DNA of 64,000 nt, taken from NCBI GenBank assembly GCA_946537885.1, contig CAMNGC010000001.1, positions 57,897-121,896 on the forward strand, in the 5' to 3' direction. Shown here piece by piece: positions 1,366-59,686 of this stretch. Every line of letters begins with the position of its first letter. The stretch's first letter is position 1. A model generated the notes under the pieces. That model had not been told where the DNA came from, did no database searches, and saw nothing but the letters and a program-made list of their open reading frames with translations. This stretch comes from an uncultured Clostridia bacterium. GTDB lineage: Bacteria; Bacillota; Clostridia; Saccharofermentanales; Saccharofermentanaceae. Made by a program: the position numbers and the translations under genes.

Positions 1366-1934
1366 GCTTCTTCACGGAAAGCTTGGGATTTCTCATGTTG
1401 TATAGGGGGTTGCTGATCGAAAAAGCCGGCCCTGAGGTATCGGTCAAGGCTGCCGTCAACAGATTTGCTGTCTGGAGGCCTTTTCTGTTGACGCGCCGCC
1501 CCGCCGTCAACAGATTTGCCGTCTGAAGGTCATTTCTGTTGACGCAGTCGCCCCCGCCGTCAACAGATTTGCTGTCTGGAGGTCGTTTCTGTTGACGCAT
1601 CCGCTCCTGCTGTCAACAGATTTGCTGTCTGGAGGTCATTTCTGTTGACGCAGCCGCCCCCGCTGTCAACAGATTTGTCGTCTGAGGGCCGTTTCTGTTG
1701 ACGCACCGCCCTCGCCGTCAACAGATTTGCTGTCTGAAGGTCATTTCTGTTGACGCGCCGCCCTCGCCGTCAACAGATTTGTGGTCTGAAGGTCATTTCT
1801 GTTGACGCAACCGCCCCCGCTGTCAATAGATTTGTCGTCTCTGTGGTCATGAATTTTAAGCATAACCTTAAGCAACATGCTTAAGCCTTTGCTTAAAGCA
1901 TTCACGCTATATCCCAAGCTTTCCGTGAAGAACC
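1366..1934. mobile_element. MITE-like non-autonomous element with palindromic array cargo (copy 1)
   Basis: Perfect 22 bp terminal inverted repeat TTCTTCACGGAAAGCTTGGGAT (1368-1389 / 1911-1932), AAAAAA on both flanks, no transposase; ends are shared with 50574-51034. Confidence 0.8.
1452..1841. repeat. Tandem array of 7.5 palindromic units, 51-53 bp period
   Basis: GTCAACAGA-N20-TCTGTTGAC plus a 13-15 nt GC-rich linker; units start at 1455, 1506, 1559, 1612, 1665, 1717, 1769 and 1822 (partial). Confidence 0.95.
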
Positions 1935-49579: not shown

Positions 49580-50473
49580 ATGGGTGGAGGAGGATTAGCA
49601 GCGATCATTATCGGCGTAATTCTTTTGCTGGTAGCGATCTCATGCATCAAGGTAGTACCTCAGGCAACAACAGTAATCGTGGAGCGTTTCGGCGCGTACC
49701 AGGCCACATGGGAAACAGGCGTTCACATGAAGTTCCCGGTAATCGATAAGGTTGCCAAGAGGATCTCACTCAAAGAGAAGGTAGCGGACTTTGCACCACA
49801 GGCTGTTATCACAAAGGATAACGTTACTATGCAGATCGATACGGTTCTGTTCTATCAGATTGTTGATCCCAAGCTTTATGCATACGGCATTGAGCGCCCG
49901 ATCATCGCTATTGAGAATCTCTCTGCAACAACACTGCGTAACATCATTGGTGACCTCGAGCTCGACCAGACTCTCACAAGCCGTGACATCATCAACACAC
50001 GTATGAGAGAGATCCTCGACGAAGCAACAGATCCTTGGGGCATCAAGGTAAATCGTGTGGAGCTTAAGAACATCATCCCGCCTCGTGAGATTCAGGCAGC
50101 GATGGAGAAGCAGATGAAGGCTGAGCGTGAGAAGAGAGAAGCGATCCTCATCGCAGAAGGTCAGAAGGAATCCGCTATCCGTGTTGCAGAAGGTGAGAAG
50201 GAGTCGGCTATCCTCAGAGCTGAGGCTAAGAAGGAAGCAGCGATCCGTGAGGCAGAAGGTCAGGCTGAGGCTATCCTGAAGGTTCAGGAAGCTACGGCTA
50301 AGGGTCTTCAGATGATCAAGGATGTCGGAGCTGATCAGGGACTCATCGCCATCAAGGGACTTGAGGCATTCGAGAAGGCCGCTGACGGCAAAGCTACAAA
50401 GATCATTATTCCTTCGGAGATCCAGGGGCTTGCCGGCCTGGCTACATCCGTGAAGGAGATCGTAAAAGAATAA
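49580..50473 (+). CDS. SPFH/band 7 (stomatin-like) protein
   Basis: VERFG, ITKDNV, AMEKQMKAEREKR. Confidence 0.93.
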   Translation: MGGGGLAAIIIGVILLLVAISCIKVVPQATTVIVERFGAYQATWETGVHMKFPVIDKVAKRISLKEKVADFAPQAVITKDNVTMQIDTVLFYQIVDPKLYAYGIERPIIAIENLSATTLRNIIGDLELDQTLTSRDIINTRMREILDEATDPWGIKVNRVELKNIIPPREIQAAMEKQMKAEREKREAILIAEGQKESAIRVAEGEKESAILRAEAKKEAAIREAEGQAEAILKVQEATAKGLQMIKDVGADQGLIAIKGLEAFEKAADGKATKIIIPSEIQGLAGLATSVKEIVKE

Positions 50474-50504
50474 ATAATATTCGGATGGGTATAAGATAGG
50501 GGAT

Positions 50505-50540
50505 ACTCCGGCCAGATCGAGAAGATCGACCGGAGTTTTT
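50505..50540 (+). terminator. Terminator after the SPFH gene
   Basis: ACTCCGG...CCGGAGT stem followed by T tract. Confidence 0.7.
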
Positions 50541-50573
50541 CTTATAGGAGGATAAAGTTGTTAGTATTTCTTT

Positions 50574-51034
50574 GGTTCTTCGCGGAAAGCTTGGGATTTC
50601 TCATCTATAGGAGATTGCTGATCGAAAAAGTTCTTCTCCGGCATCGGGTAATGCTATTTTTTGCAATCTCGAAAATAGCATTACAAAATAGCGGCAAGAG
50701 TAATGCCAAAAAGCCCTTTGGCTTGATTTGGCATTACAGGATCACGAGATTGGTAATGCTGATCTACGGAAATTGAGAAATAGCATTATCAAATTGATAA
50801 AAAATGTAATGCTAATCAGCAACTATGCCTTAAATAGCATTATTGGCCGACTGAAAATGTAATGCTAATCAGCAGGTTTGGCATAAATAGCATTATCAGG
50901 CAAGCAATAATGTAATGCAAAAAATGAGGAATGCCAACAAAAGCATTACCGAGGAAGCATAGGATTCATTGTGCGGGAATGATATAGAGCGTCAGGCATC
51001 GAGCACCTTCCTCCCAAGTTTTCCGCGAAGAACC
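50574..51034. mobile_element. MITE-like element with palindromic array cargo (copy 2)
   Basis: 23 bp terminal inverted repeat GGTTCTTCGCGGAAAGCTTGGGA (50574-50596) / TCCCAAGTTTTCCGCGAAGAACC (51012-51034), 1 mismatch; T-rich flanks; left end homologous to 1366-1443. Confidence 0.8.
50648..50949. repeat. Array of 6 palindromic units with variable spacers, 52-53 bp period
   Basis: GTAATGC-N23/24-GCATTAY-N15/16; units start at 50648, 50700, 50753, 50806, 50859 and 50912. Confidence 0.93.
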
Positions 51035-51061
51035 TTTTTTATTACCAAAGTGAAAAACATT

Positions 51062-51082
51062 TAATAGTAACTATCACAAGAA
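51062..51082. promoter_or_regulatory. Candidate NrtR-type operator upstream of pncB
   Basis: TAATAGTAACTATCACAAGAA fits a GTnAnnnTnAC core; extended -10 TGGTATAAT at 51123-51131. Confidence 0.3.
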
Positions 51083-51170
51083 GGATGGAAGCGATGTTTT
51101 ATAAGTTAAGATATATCAATCGTGGTATAATCATAGCCATAGCGACTAATCACAGACAGGAGACACGGCT

Positions 51171-57014: not shown

Positions 57015-58190
57015 ATGACCTCTGATGATCACATTTATTACGAGAATATTCATGCCAAGCGCAAGGCTTTCCTGAGGAGCTTTATCGCTGTCTTTGTTCT
57101 GTTTGCCATCATCACACTGACCAGGCTCCCGGGGCATACGGAAAAGCTGGCGGTAAAGCTTTGCGCATTTGCTGCTGCAGCTTTTACCATAGGCCTGATC
57201 ATGGGGATCTATTCTGCCGTTAAAGCGGCTGATGTAAAGATCGTCATAGGTGATGAGACTGTTGATGTTACCGTCGGGAAGAAGCACGGAAGCTATCCGC
57301 TCGAAGACTTCGAGCGTGGGGAGAGCAAAGCAGCTGGCAATGCTTACAAGAGAACATATAGCCTGATCTTCCATGACAGCAGCATTGAGCCGGAGATTTA
57401 CAACAACAGCCGGGATGATCTTTATATCCTTCTGCCGGGCATAAGCGGGAAACTTTTCGAGAAGATCGCAGATGCGCTCTCGATCCGTAAGCATCTCGTT
57501 CACCTTTCGTATGAAGAAAGCATTCCTCTCGCGCCTTTTGTTGGAAATGTCTACAAGAACAGGGAAGAAGAGACGGGATTAAGCACCTTGATCAAGCTTT
57601 ATGTGGGGATGACCATAATAGCAGCTCTTTTTGTGGTAAGCGCAGTTGTCCTGTATGTTATCGATTTCTTCACGCTTTTTTATAGCCTTTTGATCGCATG
57701 TTGCGGGACTCTGGCGCTGATACTCTCGGCGGGGTTTCTGATCATGCTTATTCGCCGCGAAAAGAACGGAAGCGTTAACTATCTGCGCAGCATCGAATTC
57801 GGAATTGACAGTATCCGCATCAATGACGGCGAAGTTATTAATCTGCGGGATGTTGCATCTGTATACATCACTCAGCCCTACCTCGAGAATATGGAGTTTA
57901 GCAAACGTGTGCTCGTGATCGAGCCGCTGCTGCTTAAGGGGATGTCCGGAAATGCCTTGAAAGATGTCGGATTGGACGCCGGCGGGCGCCTGACTGACGG
58001 GGCCGATTCACGAGCTTTACTTACTTATGTCATCGGAAACCGCCCGTCTCCTTCCGGGTCTGAGCGTCTTTTGGCAGAAGGCTGCAGCTGTGAATATCCC
58101 GCGCTTTATGCCCGTATATGCCGTTTGTGCGAGAAAAATTTCGTGCTGGTCAGGGACTATCGGGACAGGTGGCTGTCAGATTTGGAGTGA
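57015..58190 (+). CDS. Hypothetical membrane protein
   Basis: AAGGAGG SD; two TM hairpins each followed by a soluble region; no recognised motif. Confidence 0.7.
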   Translation: MTSDDHIYYENIHAKRKAFLRSFIAVFVLFAIITLTRLPGHTEKLAVKLCAFAAAAFTIGLIMGIYSAVKAADVKIVIGDETVDVTVGKKHGSYPLEDFERGESKAAGNAYKRTYSLIFHDSSIEPEIYNNSRDDLYILLPGISGKLFEKIADALSIRKHLVHLSYEESIPLAPFVGNVYKNREEETGLSTLIKLYVGMTIIAALFVVSAVVLYVIDFFTLFYSLLIACCGTLALILSAGFLIMLIRREKNGSVNYLRSIEFGIDSIRINDGEVINLRDVASVYITQPYLENMEFSKRVLVIEPLLLKGMSGNALKDVGLDAGGRLTDGADSRALLTYVIGNRPSPSGSERLLAEGCSCEYPALYARICRLCEKNFVLVRDYRDRWLSDLE

Positions 58191-58193
58191 GAT

Positions 58194-58302
58194 GTAATGC
58201 TTTTTTCGAGAATAATCGAAAAAGCATTACCTGAAAGAAAAGTAATGCCAAATCCTTATTGCCTCAAAAATAGCATTACTGATCTGATGTTAGATGTAAT
58301 GT
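58194..58302. repeat. Truncated GTAATGC/GCATTAC palindromic array (2.5 units)
   Basis: Units at 58194, 58242 and 58296 (partial); same arms and 23-24 nt loop as 50648-50949. Confidence 0.88.
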
Positions 58303-58310
58303 CAAAATAG

Positions 58311-58571
58311 TGTCCCTTAAAACTAGTTGATGGAGGAATAGTTCATCCTGACTTTACCGTGCTTGATATTAAAACGCGTAAGGAAAAGTATTGGGAGCAC
58401 TTCGGGATGATGGGAAATTCCGAATATTCAGCAAATGCCATTCACAAGCTCAATAGATACTATGCTTCCGGACTGGACCCTGGAAATAGATTATATATGA
58501 CATTTGAATGCGAAAAGGAGCCGTTGACACCACAGACAATCAACACGGTGATTGATTCGATGGGATTATGA
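58311..58571 (+). pseudogene. 5'-truncated PD-(D/E)XK-like (Vsr/DUF559-like) nuclease gene fragment
   Basis: Reading frame CPLKLVDGGIVHPDFTVLDIKTRKEKYWEHFGMMGNSEY...KLNRY...LYMTFE; PDF..YWEH.G resembles a restriction-endonuclease-fold active site; in-frame TAG immediately upstream. Confidence 0.6.
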
Positions 58572-58572
58572 A

Positions 58573-58795
58573 CTCGCAACCCTTGCAAGCAAGTTGCTCG
58601 CCATGCAATATCGTCGCTTCGCTCGCAACCCTTGCAAGCAAGTTGCTCGCTTGTGCAATATCGTCGCTTCGCTCCGATAAAGCACACTGCGCTCGCAACC
58701 CTTGCAAGCAAGTTGCTCGCTTGTGCAATATCGTCGCTTCGCTCCGATAAAGCACACTGCGCTCGCAACCCTTGCAAGCAAGTTGCTCGCTTGTG
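58573..58795. repeat. REP-like tandem repeat, 70 bp unit
   Basis: CTCGCAACCCTTGCAAGCAAGTTGCTCGC... at 58573 (49 bp short unit), 58622, 58692 and 58762 (partial); internal hairpins. Confidence 0.92.
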
Positions 58796-58804
58796 TGCTA
58801 TAAT
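58794..58804 (+). promoter_or_regulatory. Extended -10 promoter, probably leaderless transcript
   Basis: TGTGCTATAAT followed after 6 nt by ATG 58811; no SD. Confidence 0.65.
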
Positions 58805-58810
58805 TCCCGC

Positions 58811-59686
58811 ATGGGCTCAAGTTCAGTAAAAGTTATAATTGCGGCGCATAAGAAGTGCGAGCTGCCGAGAGATGAGATCTATCTCCCGGTGTTTGTCGGC
58901 GCGGCTCTTAAGCGCAGCGGAGCGTTGGAGGCGTCGGAGGCGTCGGAGGCGTCGGGGGCGTCGGAGGCGAGTGGGATCCCTGAGGGCTTCACGCCTGATG
59001 ACACCGGCGAGAATATTTCGGTCAAGAACCCGTATTATTGTGAGCTGACAGGGCTTTACTGGGCTTGGAAGAATCTGCGTGATGACTATATCGGTTTGGT
59101 CCATTATCGCAGATTTCTTGGCAGACGCGGCAGTAAAAAGGATCCGTATGCCGGGGTGTTGACGAAGAAGCTTTGGGACAAGGAGCTAGCAGCGAATCCG
59201 GATATAAAAGTGATAGTGCCGCAAAAGCGTAATTATTACATTGAGACGCTTGGATCACATTATGCACATACTCACGATGCCACACATTTGGTGACGACGC
59301 GAGCTATAATAGCAGAACAGCAGCCGGATTACCTGAACTCTTTTGACCGTGTTATCAGGCAGAGAAGCGGACACATGTTCAATATGATGATCATGAAGCG
59401 TGATATGCTTGATAATTACTGTAATTGGCTCTTCCCCATATTGGATGAGCTCGTAAAACGCACGGATATAAGCGGCTTATCGGCATTTGATGCAAGATTT
59501 CCGGGAAGAATCGCTGAGATATTGTTGAATGTGTGGTTGGACTTTAACGCGGATATCGGTATTATTAGTAGGCGTAGCATTGTCTCGATGAGCTTTTTCG
59601 AGGCAGGAAGGGTGAACTGGCTTAAGAAAGGGACAAGTTTTCTGAGTGCTAAGTTCACCGGGAAAAGGTATAAGGGTAGCTTTTGA
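58811..59686 (+). CDS. DUF4422 family polysaccharide biosynthesis protein (putative glycosyltransferase)
   Basis: IIAAHK, DDTGENIS.KNPYYCELT.LYWAWKN, IGLVHYRR, FNM.IM motifs. Confidence 0.85.
   Translation: MGSSSVKVIIAAHKKCELPRDEIYLPVFVGAALKRSGALEASEASEASGASEASGIPEGFTPDDTGENISVKNPYYCELTGLYWAWKNLRDDYIGLVHYRRFLGRRGSKKDPYAGVLTKKLWDKELAANPDIKVIVPQKRNYYIETLGSHYAHTHDATHLVTTRAIIAEQQPDYLNSFDRVIRQRSGHMFNMMIMKRDMLDNYCNWLFPILDELVKRTDISGLSAFDARFPGRIAEILLNVWLDFNADIGIISRRSIVSMSFFEAGRVNWLKKGTSFLSAKFTGKRYKGSF
58922..58969 (+). repeat. 9 bp coding tandem repeat (GCGTCGGAG) x5
   Basis: Encodes ALE-ASE-ASE-ASG-ASE inside the DUF4422 gene. Confidence 0.9.

What the first reader, a model, noticed from the sequence alone, without database searches (positions are those of the whole stretch)
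50648..50949. Dual-repeat array with fixed inverted arms and two variable spacers per unit
Seen: six units of GTAATGC-N23/24-GCATTAY-N15/16 with tightly constant lengths while loops and linkers mostly differ. Arm extensions covary: GTAATGCTATTTT/AAAATAGCATTAC in unit 1 and GTAATGCCAAA/TTTGGCATTAC in unit 2. It is not CRISPR, since the repeats are only 7 bp and alternate in orientation and no cas gene is in the window. Established: TIGR arrays have short dual repeats with two spacers, but with about 36 nt units and box C/D motifs, which are absent here. Inference: a candidate new guide- or hairpin-RNA array, or a phased binding-site array. Units 4 and 5 are related, so ancient duplication with drift is also possible.
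Basis: partly seen in the sequence, partly recalled or inferred. Interest (0 to 1): 0.8.

Follow-up and report, generated by a model that had tools for sequence, protein, structure and literature searches.

The report
Nuclease-linked palindrome array riding a mini-transposon
The six evenly spaced palindromes are unlikely to be guide RNAs: they are a gene-less copy of a helically phased DNA repeat that accompanies an unannotated family of predicted nucleases in gut Clostridia and likely serves as their binding sites, and this copy was inserted here inside a miniature transposon with ISL3 ends.

Summary
The six units are real (period 52-53). They lie inside a 461-bp element (50574-51034) whose 23-bp ends match an autonomous ISL3 insertion sequence. 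Contigs from two studies show the empty site, and four congeners lack the array there. Copies elsewhere in the genome keep the same units in the same order, so the loops are inherited, not acquired spacers.

The unit design belongs to an unannotated ~265-aa family with a predicted PD-(D/E)XK domain. 104 of 127 full-length homologs have such palindromes in a 600-bp flank, against 3 of 150 random windows. Units are about 38 bp; periods cluster at 5, 6, 7 and 8 helical turns. The arm motif differs from locus to locus. GTAATGC units abut a broken homolog at 58311-58571 and an intact one in a Lachnospiraceae genome. Gene-less arrays also occur without ISL3 ends.

Best reading: phased double-stranded-DNA binding sites of a REP/RAYT-like selfish system that uses a different enzyme. 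Binding, cutting and spread are inferred; a recognition-code test was inconclusive. A guide-RNA array is unlikely. The scan earlier noted analogous repeat-nuclease pairs with other nuclease families, none matching this protein by sequence.

The parts
50574..51034 (.). 461-bp non-coding element with ISL3-type ends (MITE-like carrier)
   Evidence: Inverted ends; 40 end-matches genome-wide at <=5 mismatches; empty site in runs X2 and X4
50574..50596 (+). left 23-bp terminal inverted repeat
   Evidence: differs at one position from the left end of the ISL3 element L285
51012..51034 (-). right 23-bp terminal inverted repeat
   Evidence: 96% complementary to the left one
50648..50949 (.). six palindromic units GTAATGC-N23/24-GCATTAY, period 52-53 (five helical turns)
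58194..58279 (.). two more GTAATGC units without ISL3 ends, directly upstream of the nuclease-gene remnant; spacing 48 here, 52 in an allele from run X4
   Evidence: 4-nt insertion after 58230 in one contig of depth 3.1
58311..58571 (+). 3' remnant (86 codons) of a gene of the RSKSE/PDF/EHxG nuclease-like family, the likely cognate gene
   Evidence: (profile positions 179-260, E 6e-28); a contig of run X1 has about 273 more nt at 58309/58310
50496..50545 (+). hairpin after the SPFH/Band-7 gene, probably its terminator; the element is inserted just downstream in a T-rich tract
   Evidence: I8; a similar hairpin stands at the array-free orthologous locus in G119; terminator role is inference
1366..1934 (.). 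sibling element with the same ends carrying seven GTCAACAG-N22-CTGTTGAC units

Best explanation
The array is a gene-less set of helically phased palindromes, likely the double-stranded-DNA binding sites of an unannotated small PD-(D/E)XK-fold protein family, and it sits here as cargo of a non-autonomous element with ISL3 ends that inserted downstream of the SPFH gene. Shown: the ISL3 ends, the empty site, the dispersed copies with inherited loops, the adjacency of such arrays to the gene family, and the whole-turn periods. Inferred mechanism: a dimer would grip the two heptamers of a unit, about 30 bp (three turns) apart, perhaps through the beta-sheet at the tip of its N-terminal coiled hairpin. 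Neighbouring dimers would sit on the same face of the helix, 5-8 turns apart. The C-terminal nuclease would nick or cut nearby, and repair from other copies would extend and spread the arrays, keeping the arms and letting the loops drift. ISL3 transposase acting in trans would then move captured blocks as MITEs. This works like REP/BIME with RAYT, but with another enzyme class.
For: Carrier: 23-bp ends match L285, a 1.5-kb contig with both ends around a 450-aa ISL3 transposase (PF01610 E 3e-56). Its first 107 nt are 98% identical to the end of own contig C18. Thirteen paired elements of 253-781 bp carry different mosaics. A joint 50563->51038 appears in contigs of two studies, and the orthologous region in 4 of 4 congeners with a pncB hit has no array. 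Link to the gene family: >=2 units in a flank at 104 of 127 full-length homolog loci (upstream flank alone 90 of 127), against 3 of 150 random own-genome windows and 0 of 127 shuffled flanks. None of 15 viral loci with this nuclease domain has an array; 14 of them are long fusions. L074 has 7 GTAATG-type units at period 53-54 directly upstream of an intact homolog. Two other cargo motifs, GTCAACAG and ACCACAG, flank intact homologs L002/L126 and L189. GTCAACAG units occur in only 2 of 100 genus genomes, the two that hold L002/L126. Phasing: 188 of 226 intervals lie within 1.5 bp of n x 10.5 against 30% under a uniform spread; 67 of 72 loci have a modal period of 51-54, 63-64, 73-75 or 82-84. 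Period follows the protein tree (16 changes vs 31.8 +- 2.1 shuffled, 0 of 300). Arms are better kept than loops in orphan copies. Fold: pLDDT 90; best matches I-Bth0305I (Z 8.7, rmsd 2.9, 90 aligned), TnsA (Z 8.6, rmsd 3.3, 115 aligned), Vsr (Z 7.0); P228, D229, H245 and G247 are invariant in 87 homologs.
Against: No binding or cleavage has been shown. The search for protein columns that track the arm motif found nothing passing correction (66 loci; best column FWER 0.59). The link of GTAATGC itself to the family rests on two adjacencies (the window remnant and L074), and the remnant has no close relative among 143 family genomes (best 49% identity). 23 of 127 homolog loci have no detected array. 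The 127 loci are top-scoring hits, mostly from one genus and partly orthologous, so they are not independent; kin share the period label, so one search does not show co-evolution. Fold Z-scores are middling, and Foldseek gave nothing at E<=0.001. Only 1 of 13 elements has a perfect 8-bp target duplication, and the window copy's is imperfect. No full ISL3 transposase is assembled in the own genome (88% complete). Both empty-site contigs have depth near 3.3.
Confidence: 0.6

Rival explanations
1. The arrays are autoregulatory operators or sequestering sites of the nuclease-like protein (binding only). They spread passively by ISL3 capture, slippage and recombination, without the protein moving them.
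For: 85 of 104 array-bearing loci have the array upstream only, and 26 of 59 upstream arrays of >=3 units end within 37 bp of the estimated start codon. 9 of 11 GTAATGC clusters in the own genome are within 500 bp of an ISL3 end. One clade stays at one chromosomal locus across several genomes. The nuclease domain is homologous to the C-terminus of PADLOC defence candidate PDC-S68 (E 3e-28).
Against: 14 loci have arrays downstream only and 5 on both sides. Gene-less arrays are dispersed in G064, G103, G029 and G122, which had no match to this ISL3-end pattern; 0 of 18 fetched solo loci hit the nuclease profile.
Confidence: 0.22
2. A neutral minisatellite inside a MITE (as in P. gingivalis BrickBuilt or pneumococcal BOX): an old tandem duplication that drifted, with no partner protein.
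For: Copies differ by unit loss and fusion (2-6 units); units 4 and 5 are related; another array shows recent identical-unit expansion (L333 vs L339).
Against: Arms are kept far better than loops (p 9e-5). The unit length and whole-turn periods recur with dozens of unrelated arm motifs (65 distinct 8-letter consensus strings in 72 loci, an upper count because registers are approximate) beside one gene family.
Confidence: 0.08
3. A guide- or hairpin-RNA array: each unit is transcribed, processed and directs the nuclease through its loop or linker.
For: Fixed lengths with variable interiors; every unit can fold weakly (-6 to -20 kcal/mol); a nuclease-like gene lies beside related arrays.
Against: Loops and linkers are inherited in fixed order across genomic copies; no phage match and one chance-level plasmid match; no compensatory pairing between copies; periods are quantised in DNA helical turns, which an RNA guide would not need; arrays occur on either side of the gene; no excess of promoter-like sites (3 vs 2.8 expected).
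Confidence: 0.05

Closest known systems
REP / BIME / REPIN with RAYT (TnpA-REP) (PMC5581495 and PMC3184786, passages read; PMC2817692, search listing)
   Same: About 35-40-bp extragenic palindromes, clustered in mosaics, dispersed in many gene-less copies, flanking a partner enzyme gene, with lineage-specific motifs.
   Different: The partner is a PD-(D/E)XK-fold protein, not a tyrosine (Y1) transposase; no Y1_Tnp hit in the own genome. Arms are only 7-9 bp around a 20+ bp loop. Spacing is quantised in helical turns. Genomes carry up to 9 divergent paralogs, whereas RAYTs are described as single-copy.
ISL3-family insertion sequences and their MITEs
   Same: 23-bp terminal inverted repeats shared with an autonomous ISL3 element, non-coding interior, insertion in A/T tracts, empty allele exists.
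   Different: The interior is captured foreign cargo (several palindrome families in variable mosaics), not a deleted transposase; target duplications are mostly imperfect.
MITEs with internal repeat arrays: P. gingivalis BrickBuilt (PMC4596501, abstract and outline read); pneumococcal BOX (PMC3184786, passage)
   Same: Intergenic multi-copy element with ends plus a variable number of internal units.
   Different: BrickBuilt units are 23-nt spacer-less tandem copies. Here the units are spaced palindromes with conserved arms that also exist outside the MITE beside a specific gene family.
TIGR arrays (PMC12045711, passages read)
   Same: Two short conserved motifs alternating with two variable segments, in arrays of similar unit number.
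   Different: Unit 52-53 bp, not 36 nt; the motifs are inverted copies of each other; no UG...CCA repeat ends; the neighbouring protein is not Nop-like; variable segments are inherited.
PADLOC PDC-S68 C-terminal nuclease domain; Vsr / I-Bth0305I / TnsA fold
   Same: Homologous or structurally similar nuclease domain.
   Different: Here it is a ~265-aa stand-alone protein with an N-terminal coiled hairpin and three-stranded sheet; the long fusion forms found in viral contigs have no arrays.

Membership tests
ISL3-derived MITE (carrier) | Terminal inverted repeats shared with an autonomous ISL3 element | tested here: met
ISL3-derived MITE (carrier) | Insertion polymorphism (empty site) | tested here: met
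   Joint 50563->51038 in runs X2 and X4, two studies, depth about 3.3; no array in 4 congeners
ISL3-derived MITE (carrier) | About 8-bp AT-rich target duplication (recalled, not from a call) | tested here: inconclusive
   1 of 13 elements has a perfect 8-mer, 2 have 6-bp homopolymers; flanks mostly A/T-rich
ISL3-derived MITE (carrier) | Cognate transposase in the same genome | tested here: inconclusive
   Only the first 107 nt, at a contig end; no hit in the assembly, 88% complete
REP/REPIN-RAYT | Multi-copy extragenic palindromes of about 35-40 bp in mosaic clusters | tested here: met
REP/REPIN-RAYT | Flanked gene is a Y1 tyrosine transposase (RAYT) | tested here: not met
   The flanked gene has no Pfam hit and a PD-(D/E)XK-like model; PF01797 not found in the own genome
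REP/REPIN-RAYT | Enzyme binds and cleaves at the repeat | not testable with these tools
   Needs biochemistry
TIGR-Tas | 36-nt unit; repeats starting UG and ending CCA (box C/D) | tested here: not met
   Unit 52-53 bp with arms GTAATGC/GCATTAY against the description
TIGR-Tas | Adjacent Nop-domain Tas gene | tested here: inconclusive
   Neighbours are SPFH and NAPRTase genes; PF01798 not found in an 88%-complete genome, but that profile may miss Tas proteins
TIGR-Tas | Processing into unit RNAs | not testable with these tools
   Only assembled contigs of RNA runs were available
CRISPR | Long direct repeats with unique, acquired spacers | tested here: not met
   7-bp inverted arms; segments inherited in order across copies; no phage match
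CRISPR | cas1 in the genome | tested here: inconclusive
   PF01867 not found, genome 88% complete
PD-(D/E)XK nuclease (partner protein) | Restriction-endonuclease-like core with conserved acidic residues | tested here: met
   VIA Z 8.7/8.6/7.0 to I-Bth0305I, TnsA and Vsr; invariant E198, P228-D229, H245; HEAT_CxxC_PD-DEXK profile hit at E 7e-8 in 1 and 7e-5 in another of 4 proteins
PD-(D/E)XK nuclease (partner protein) | Nuclease activity | not testable with these tools
   Needs an assay

The most novel reading that the evidence does not exclude
An undescribed selfish system in gut Clostridia: a small nuclease with a rapidly re-programmed DNA-reading domain assembles on its own helically phased palindrome arrays and copies them around the chromosome. 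It leaves mixed-motif arrays as a record of past specificity switches, and ISL3 MITEs parasitise it by ferrying the arrays. This would be a second, enzymatically unrelated origin of REP-like DNA and a natural library of paired protein/site variants.
Probability: 0.35. Interest if true: 0.8.

Novelty: new variant of a known kind. Interest (0 to 1): 0.6.

Why it matters
How REP-like repeats arise and spread is known, indirectly, only for RAYT transposases. This family offers a second enzyme class with dozens of natural protein/motif pairs, a strict geometric rule (about 38-bp unit, 5-8 helical turns) and gene-less copies, so binding, phasing and spread can each be tested directly. If the specificity is carried by a small swappable domain, the family is also a source of compact sequence-specific nucleases. 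For the scan, it shows that 'dual-repeat, two-spacer' arrays can be DNA binding-site arrays rather than guide arrays.

Tried and rejected
Rfam: two hits at E 0.04 and 0.76, far below gathering scores. Phage and plasmid BLAST of the element: none, and one 30-nt hit at E 0.03. Terminal repeat in viral contigs: 0. The genome-collection scan for the GTAATGC pattern returned 80 stretches, almost all single chance matches; only L074 was a true array; the pattern was too loose and 80 may be a cap. The metagenome scan gave 4 loci: three copies of the same ISL3-ended elements and one unrelated 26-bp tandem repeat. The tandem GTAATGC pattern was not found in 99 other genus genomes.

RNA run X14: contigs cover the flanking genes but not 50463-51104; absence in contigs is not evidence.

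Recognition-code test (partial correlation of protein columns with motif similarity; 66 of 72 loci, 3 near-duplicates and 3 long branches dropped): no window or column significant after correction; uncorrected z about 3 at residues 36-50 (beta-hairpin) and 201-212. The N-terminal domain folded alone matched only generic coiled hairpins. The Atlas gave only unnamed clusters and a DUF6788 lead in 14% of one cluster. The search for longer relatives of the remnant found none at E<=1e-10. The careful IQ-TREE search did not finish; quick and FastTree trees were used.

Literature searches showed no description of this gene-array link in their listings. Keyword passages of two 2026 genome-language-model preprints did not mention it; their supplements are closed and could list such arrays.

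Full report
Observation. The six units are present as described, with periods 52, 53, 53, 53, 53; 13 strand-matches in the window compare with 0.01 expected. A 23-bp inverted repeat brackets the array, defining a 461-bp element at 50574-51034. Two more identical-design units lie at 58194-58279. The element sits between an SPFH/Band-7 gene and a nicotinate phosphoribosyltransferase gene, just after a hairpin at 50496-50545.

The carrier. The terminal repeat occurs 40 times in the own genome at up to 5 mismatches (29 at up to 2). Thirteen paired elements of 253-781 bp hold different mosaics of palindrome modules: GTAATGC, GTCAACAG, ACCACAG, TACCAACTG, GCTTAA and others. In G113 the same ends enclose a 450-aa ORF that is an ISL3 transposase (PF01610 E 3e-56, PF13542 E 9e-7). 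Its first 107 nt are 98% identical to the end of own contig C18, but no full transposase is assembled (genome 88% complete). Contigs from runs X2 and X4 (two studies, depth about 3.3 each) join 50563 to 51038 with four letters between, which is the empty site. The orthologous intergenic region in G119, G018, G005 and G015 has neither ends nor array (the fifth genome searched had no hit for the anchor gene). Target duplications are mostly imperfect (1 of 13 has a perfect 8-mer). So the array's presence at this locus is a recent insertion and says nothing about the flanking genes.

The cargo is inherited, not acquired. There are 25 GTAATGC units in 11 clusters, 9 of them within 500 bp of a terminal repeat. 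Nine aligned copies start with the same unit 1 and keep the order. C25 has all six units, C7 three and C17 two, and C3 goes from unit 1 straight to unit 6. Between the window and C25 the arms are 81/84 identical, loops 114/142 and linkers 58/75 (Fisher p 9e-5), so the arms are still maintained or homogenised. The stem extensions show one-sided changes only, by eye. The element matches no phage and no plasmid beyond chance level, and no Rfam family.

The partner family. The pair at 58194-58279 has no ISL3 end and abuts an 86-codon remnant of a gene. A full-length paralog, L002 (301 aa), is followed directly by a GTCAACAG array of the same geometry. The family has no Pfam or NCBIfam name and over 1,000 database relatives. 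It is present in 91 of 100 genus genomes, up to 9 copies each, and in 24 of 300 class genomes. I ran one detector over 140 loci (2 duplicates and 11 partial genes dropped, 127 left). It found at least 2 palindromic units in a 600-bp flank at 104 loci and at least 3 at 72 (upstream flank alone 90 and 59), against 3 and 1 of 150 random own-genome windows and 0 of 127 shuffled flanks. These loci are top hits, mostly congeners, and not independent. Arrays are upstream only at 85 loci, downstream only at 14 and on both sides at 5. The only true GTAATG-type array among 80 genome-collection hits, L074 from a Lachnospiraceae MAG, lies directly upstream of an intact homolog. Fifteen viral loci with the nuclease domain, 14 of them long fusions, have no arrays.

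Geometry. Units are about 36-39 bp whatever the motif. Periods cluster at 51-54, 61-64, 73-75 and 82-84 bp: 188 of 226 intervals lie within 1.5 bp of a multiple of 10.5, against 30% for a uniform spread. In the window array the heptamers are 30-31 bp apart within a unit and 22-23 bp apart across a linker, about three and two turns. The period class follows the protein tree (16 changes vs 31.8 +- 2.1 shuffled; kin share labels, so this shows inheritance, not co-evolution). The arm motif changes even among close orthologs. Whole-turn phasing is what proteins bound side by side on duplex DNA need, and an RNA guide does not; this inference is the main reason for the DNA-site reading.

Spread without ISL3. 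GTCAACAG units occur in 2 of 100 genus genomes, the two with the L002/L126 genes (50 and 20 units). TACCTACT units occur in 10 of 100 and are most numerous in G064, G103 and G029, whose gene-adjacent array has that motif; the other seven were not checked for a cognate gene. None of 18 fetched solo loci hits the nuclease profile, and G064, G103, G029 and G122 had no match to the ISL3-end pattern. Some solo arrays join blocks of different motifs.

The protein. The model (pLDDT 90) has an N-terminal coiled hairpin tipped by a three-stranded sheet, and a C-terminal alpha/beta domain. That domain's best matches are I-Bth0305I (Z 8.7, rmsd 2.9, 90 aligned), TnsA (Z 8.6), Bax1 and Vsr; Foldseek's weaker rows name the same fold class. 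It is homologous to the C-terminus of PADLOC PDC-S68. Putative catalytic residues are invariant. The N-terminal domain matched only generic coils. A test for residues that track the motif was not significant, and a dimer model could not be obtained, so the reading head and the oligomer are inference.

Mechanism and rivals. Most likely (0.6) the arms are duplex binding sites for this family; cutting and repair would extend and disperse arrays, and ISL3 ends ferry captured blocks. The carrier part alone I hold at about 0.9 and the binding-site part at about 0.75. A binding-only operator or sink with passive spread is the main rival (0.22): most arrays are upstream and 26 of 59 end within 37 bp of the start. 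A neutral minisatellite (0.08) and a guide-RNA array (0.05) fit poorly.

Comparison with what is known. It works like REP/BIME/REPIN with RAYT (PMC5581495 and PMC3184786, passages; PMC2817692, listing) but fails membership on the enzyme. It resembles BrickBuilt (PMC4596501, abstract and outline) as a MITE with an internal array. It fails TIGR on unit length and repeat ends (PMC12045711, passages). Seven literature searches showed no description in their listings; most subscription papers and bioRxiv supplements were not visible. Earlier notes of this scan report analogous palindrome-nuclease pairs with DUF559, AbiEi-DUF559 and GxxExxY proteins. None matched this protein by sequence, and I did not test them. 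The 8-bp ISL3 target rule and the 10.5 bp per turn value are recalled.

Verdict: real feature; a new variant of REP-like repeat-enzyme systems carried by an ISL3 MITE; interest 0.6.

Noticed in passing
window 1366-1934: Second element with the same ISL3 ends, carrying seven GTCAACAG-N22-CTGTTGAC units; an intact homolog gene with this motif downstream is at G000:C12:35825-36727 (L002).
   Followed up: yes
window 58573-58826: A different repeat family (29-nt core, 70-bp period) directly after the nuclease remnant; not characterised.
   Followed up: no
L345, L346 (G122); L335 (G064); L342 (G029): Gene-less arrays made of blocks with different arm motifs (TACCTACT, TACCGACT, TACCCACT) that keep period 74 within blocks; block junctions are 39-40 or 73 bp. 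Possibly a record of specificity switches.
   Followed up: partly
L336, L337, L340, L341, L343, L344: Doublets of TACCTACT units about 180 bp apart with a nearby ATACCCCCAGGGGGTAT palindrome, reminiscent of REPIN doublets.
   Followed up: no
G008, G005, G015, G022 (L286, L276, L012, L011): The same ISL3-type ends are followed by other palindrome arrays in other genomes, so capture by this IS is recurrent.
   Followed up: partly
G000:C11:27416-27784 with array at C11:28273: A divergent ~250-aa homolog with an upstream array of period 83 (eight turns).
   Followed up: partly
window 58172 and 58309-58310: The remnant locus is polymorphic: a contig of run X2 leaves the window sequence at 58172, and one of run X1 has about 273 more nt at 58309/58310.
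   Followed up: partly
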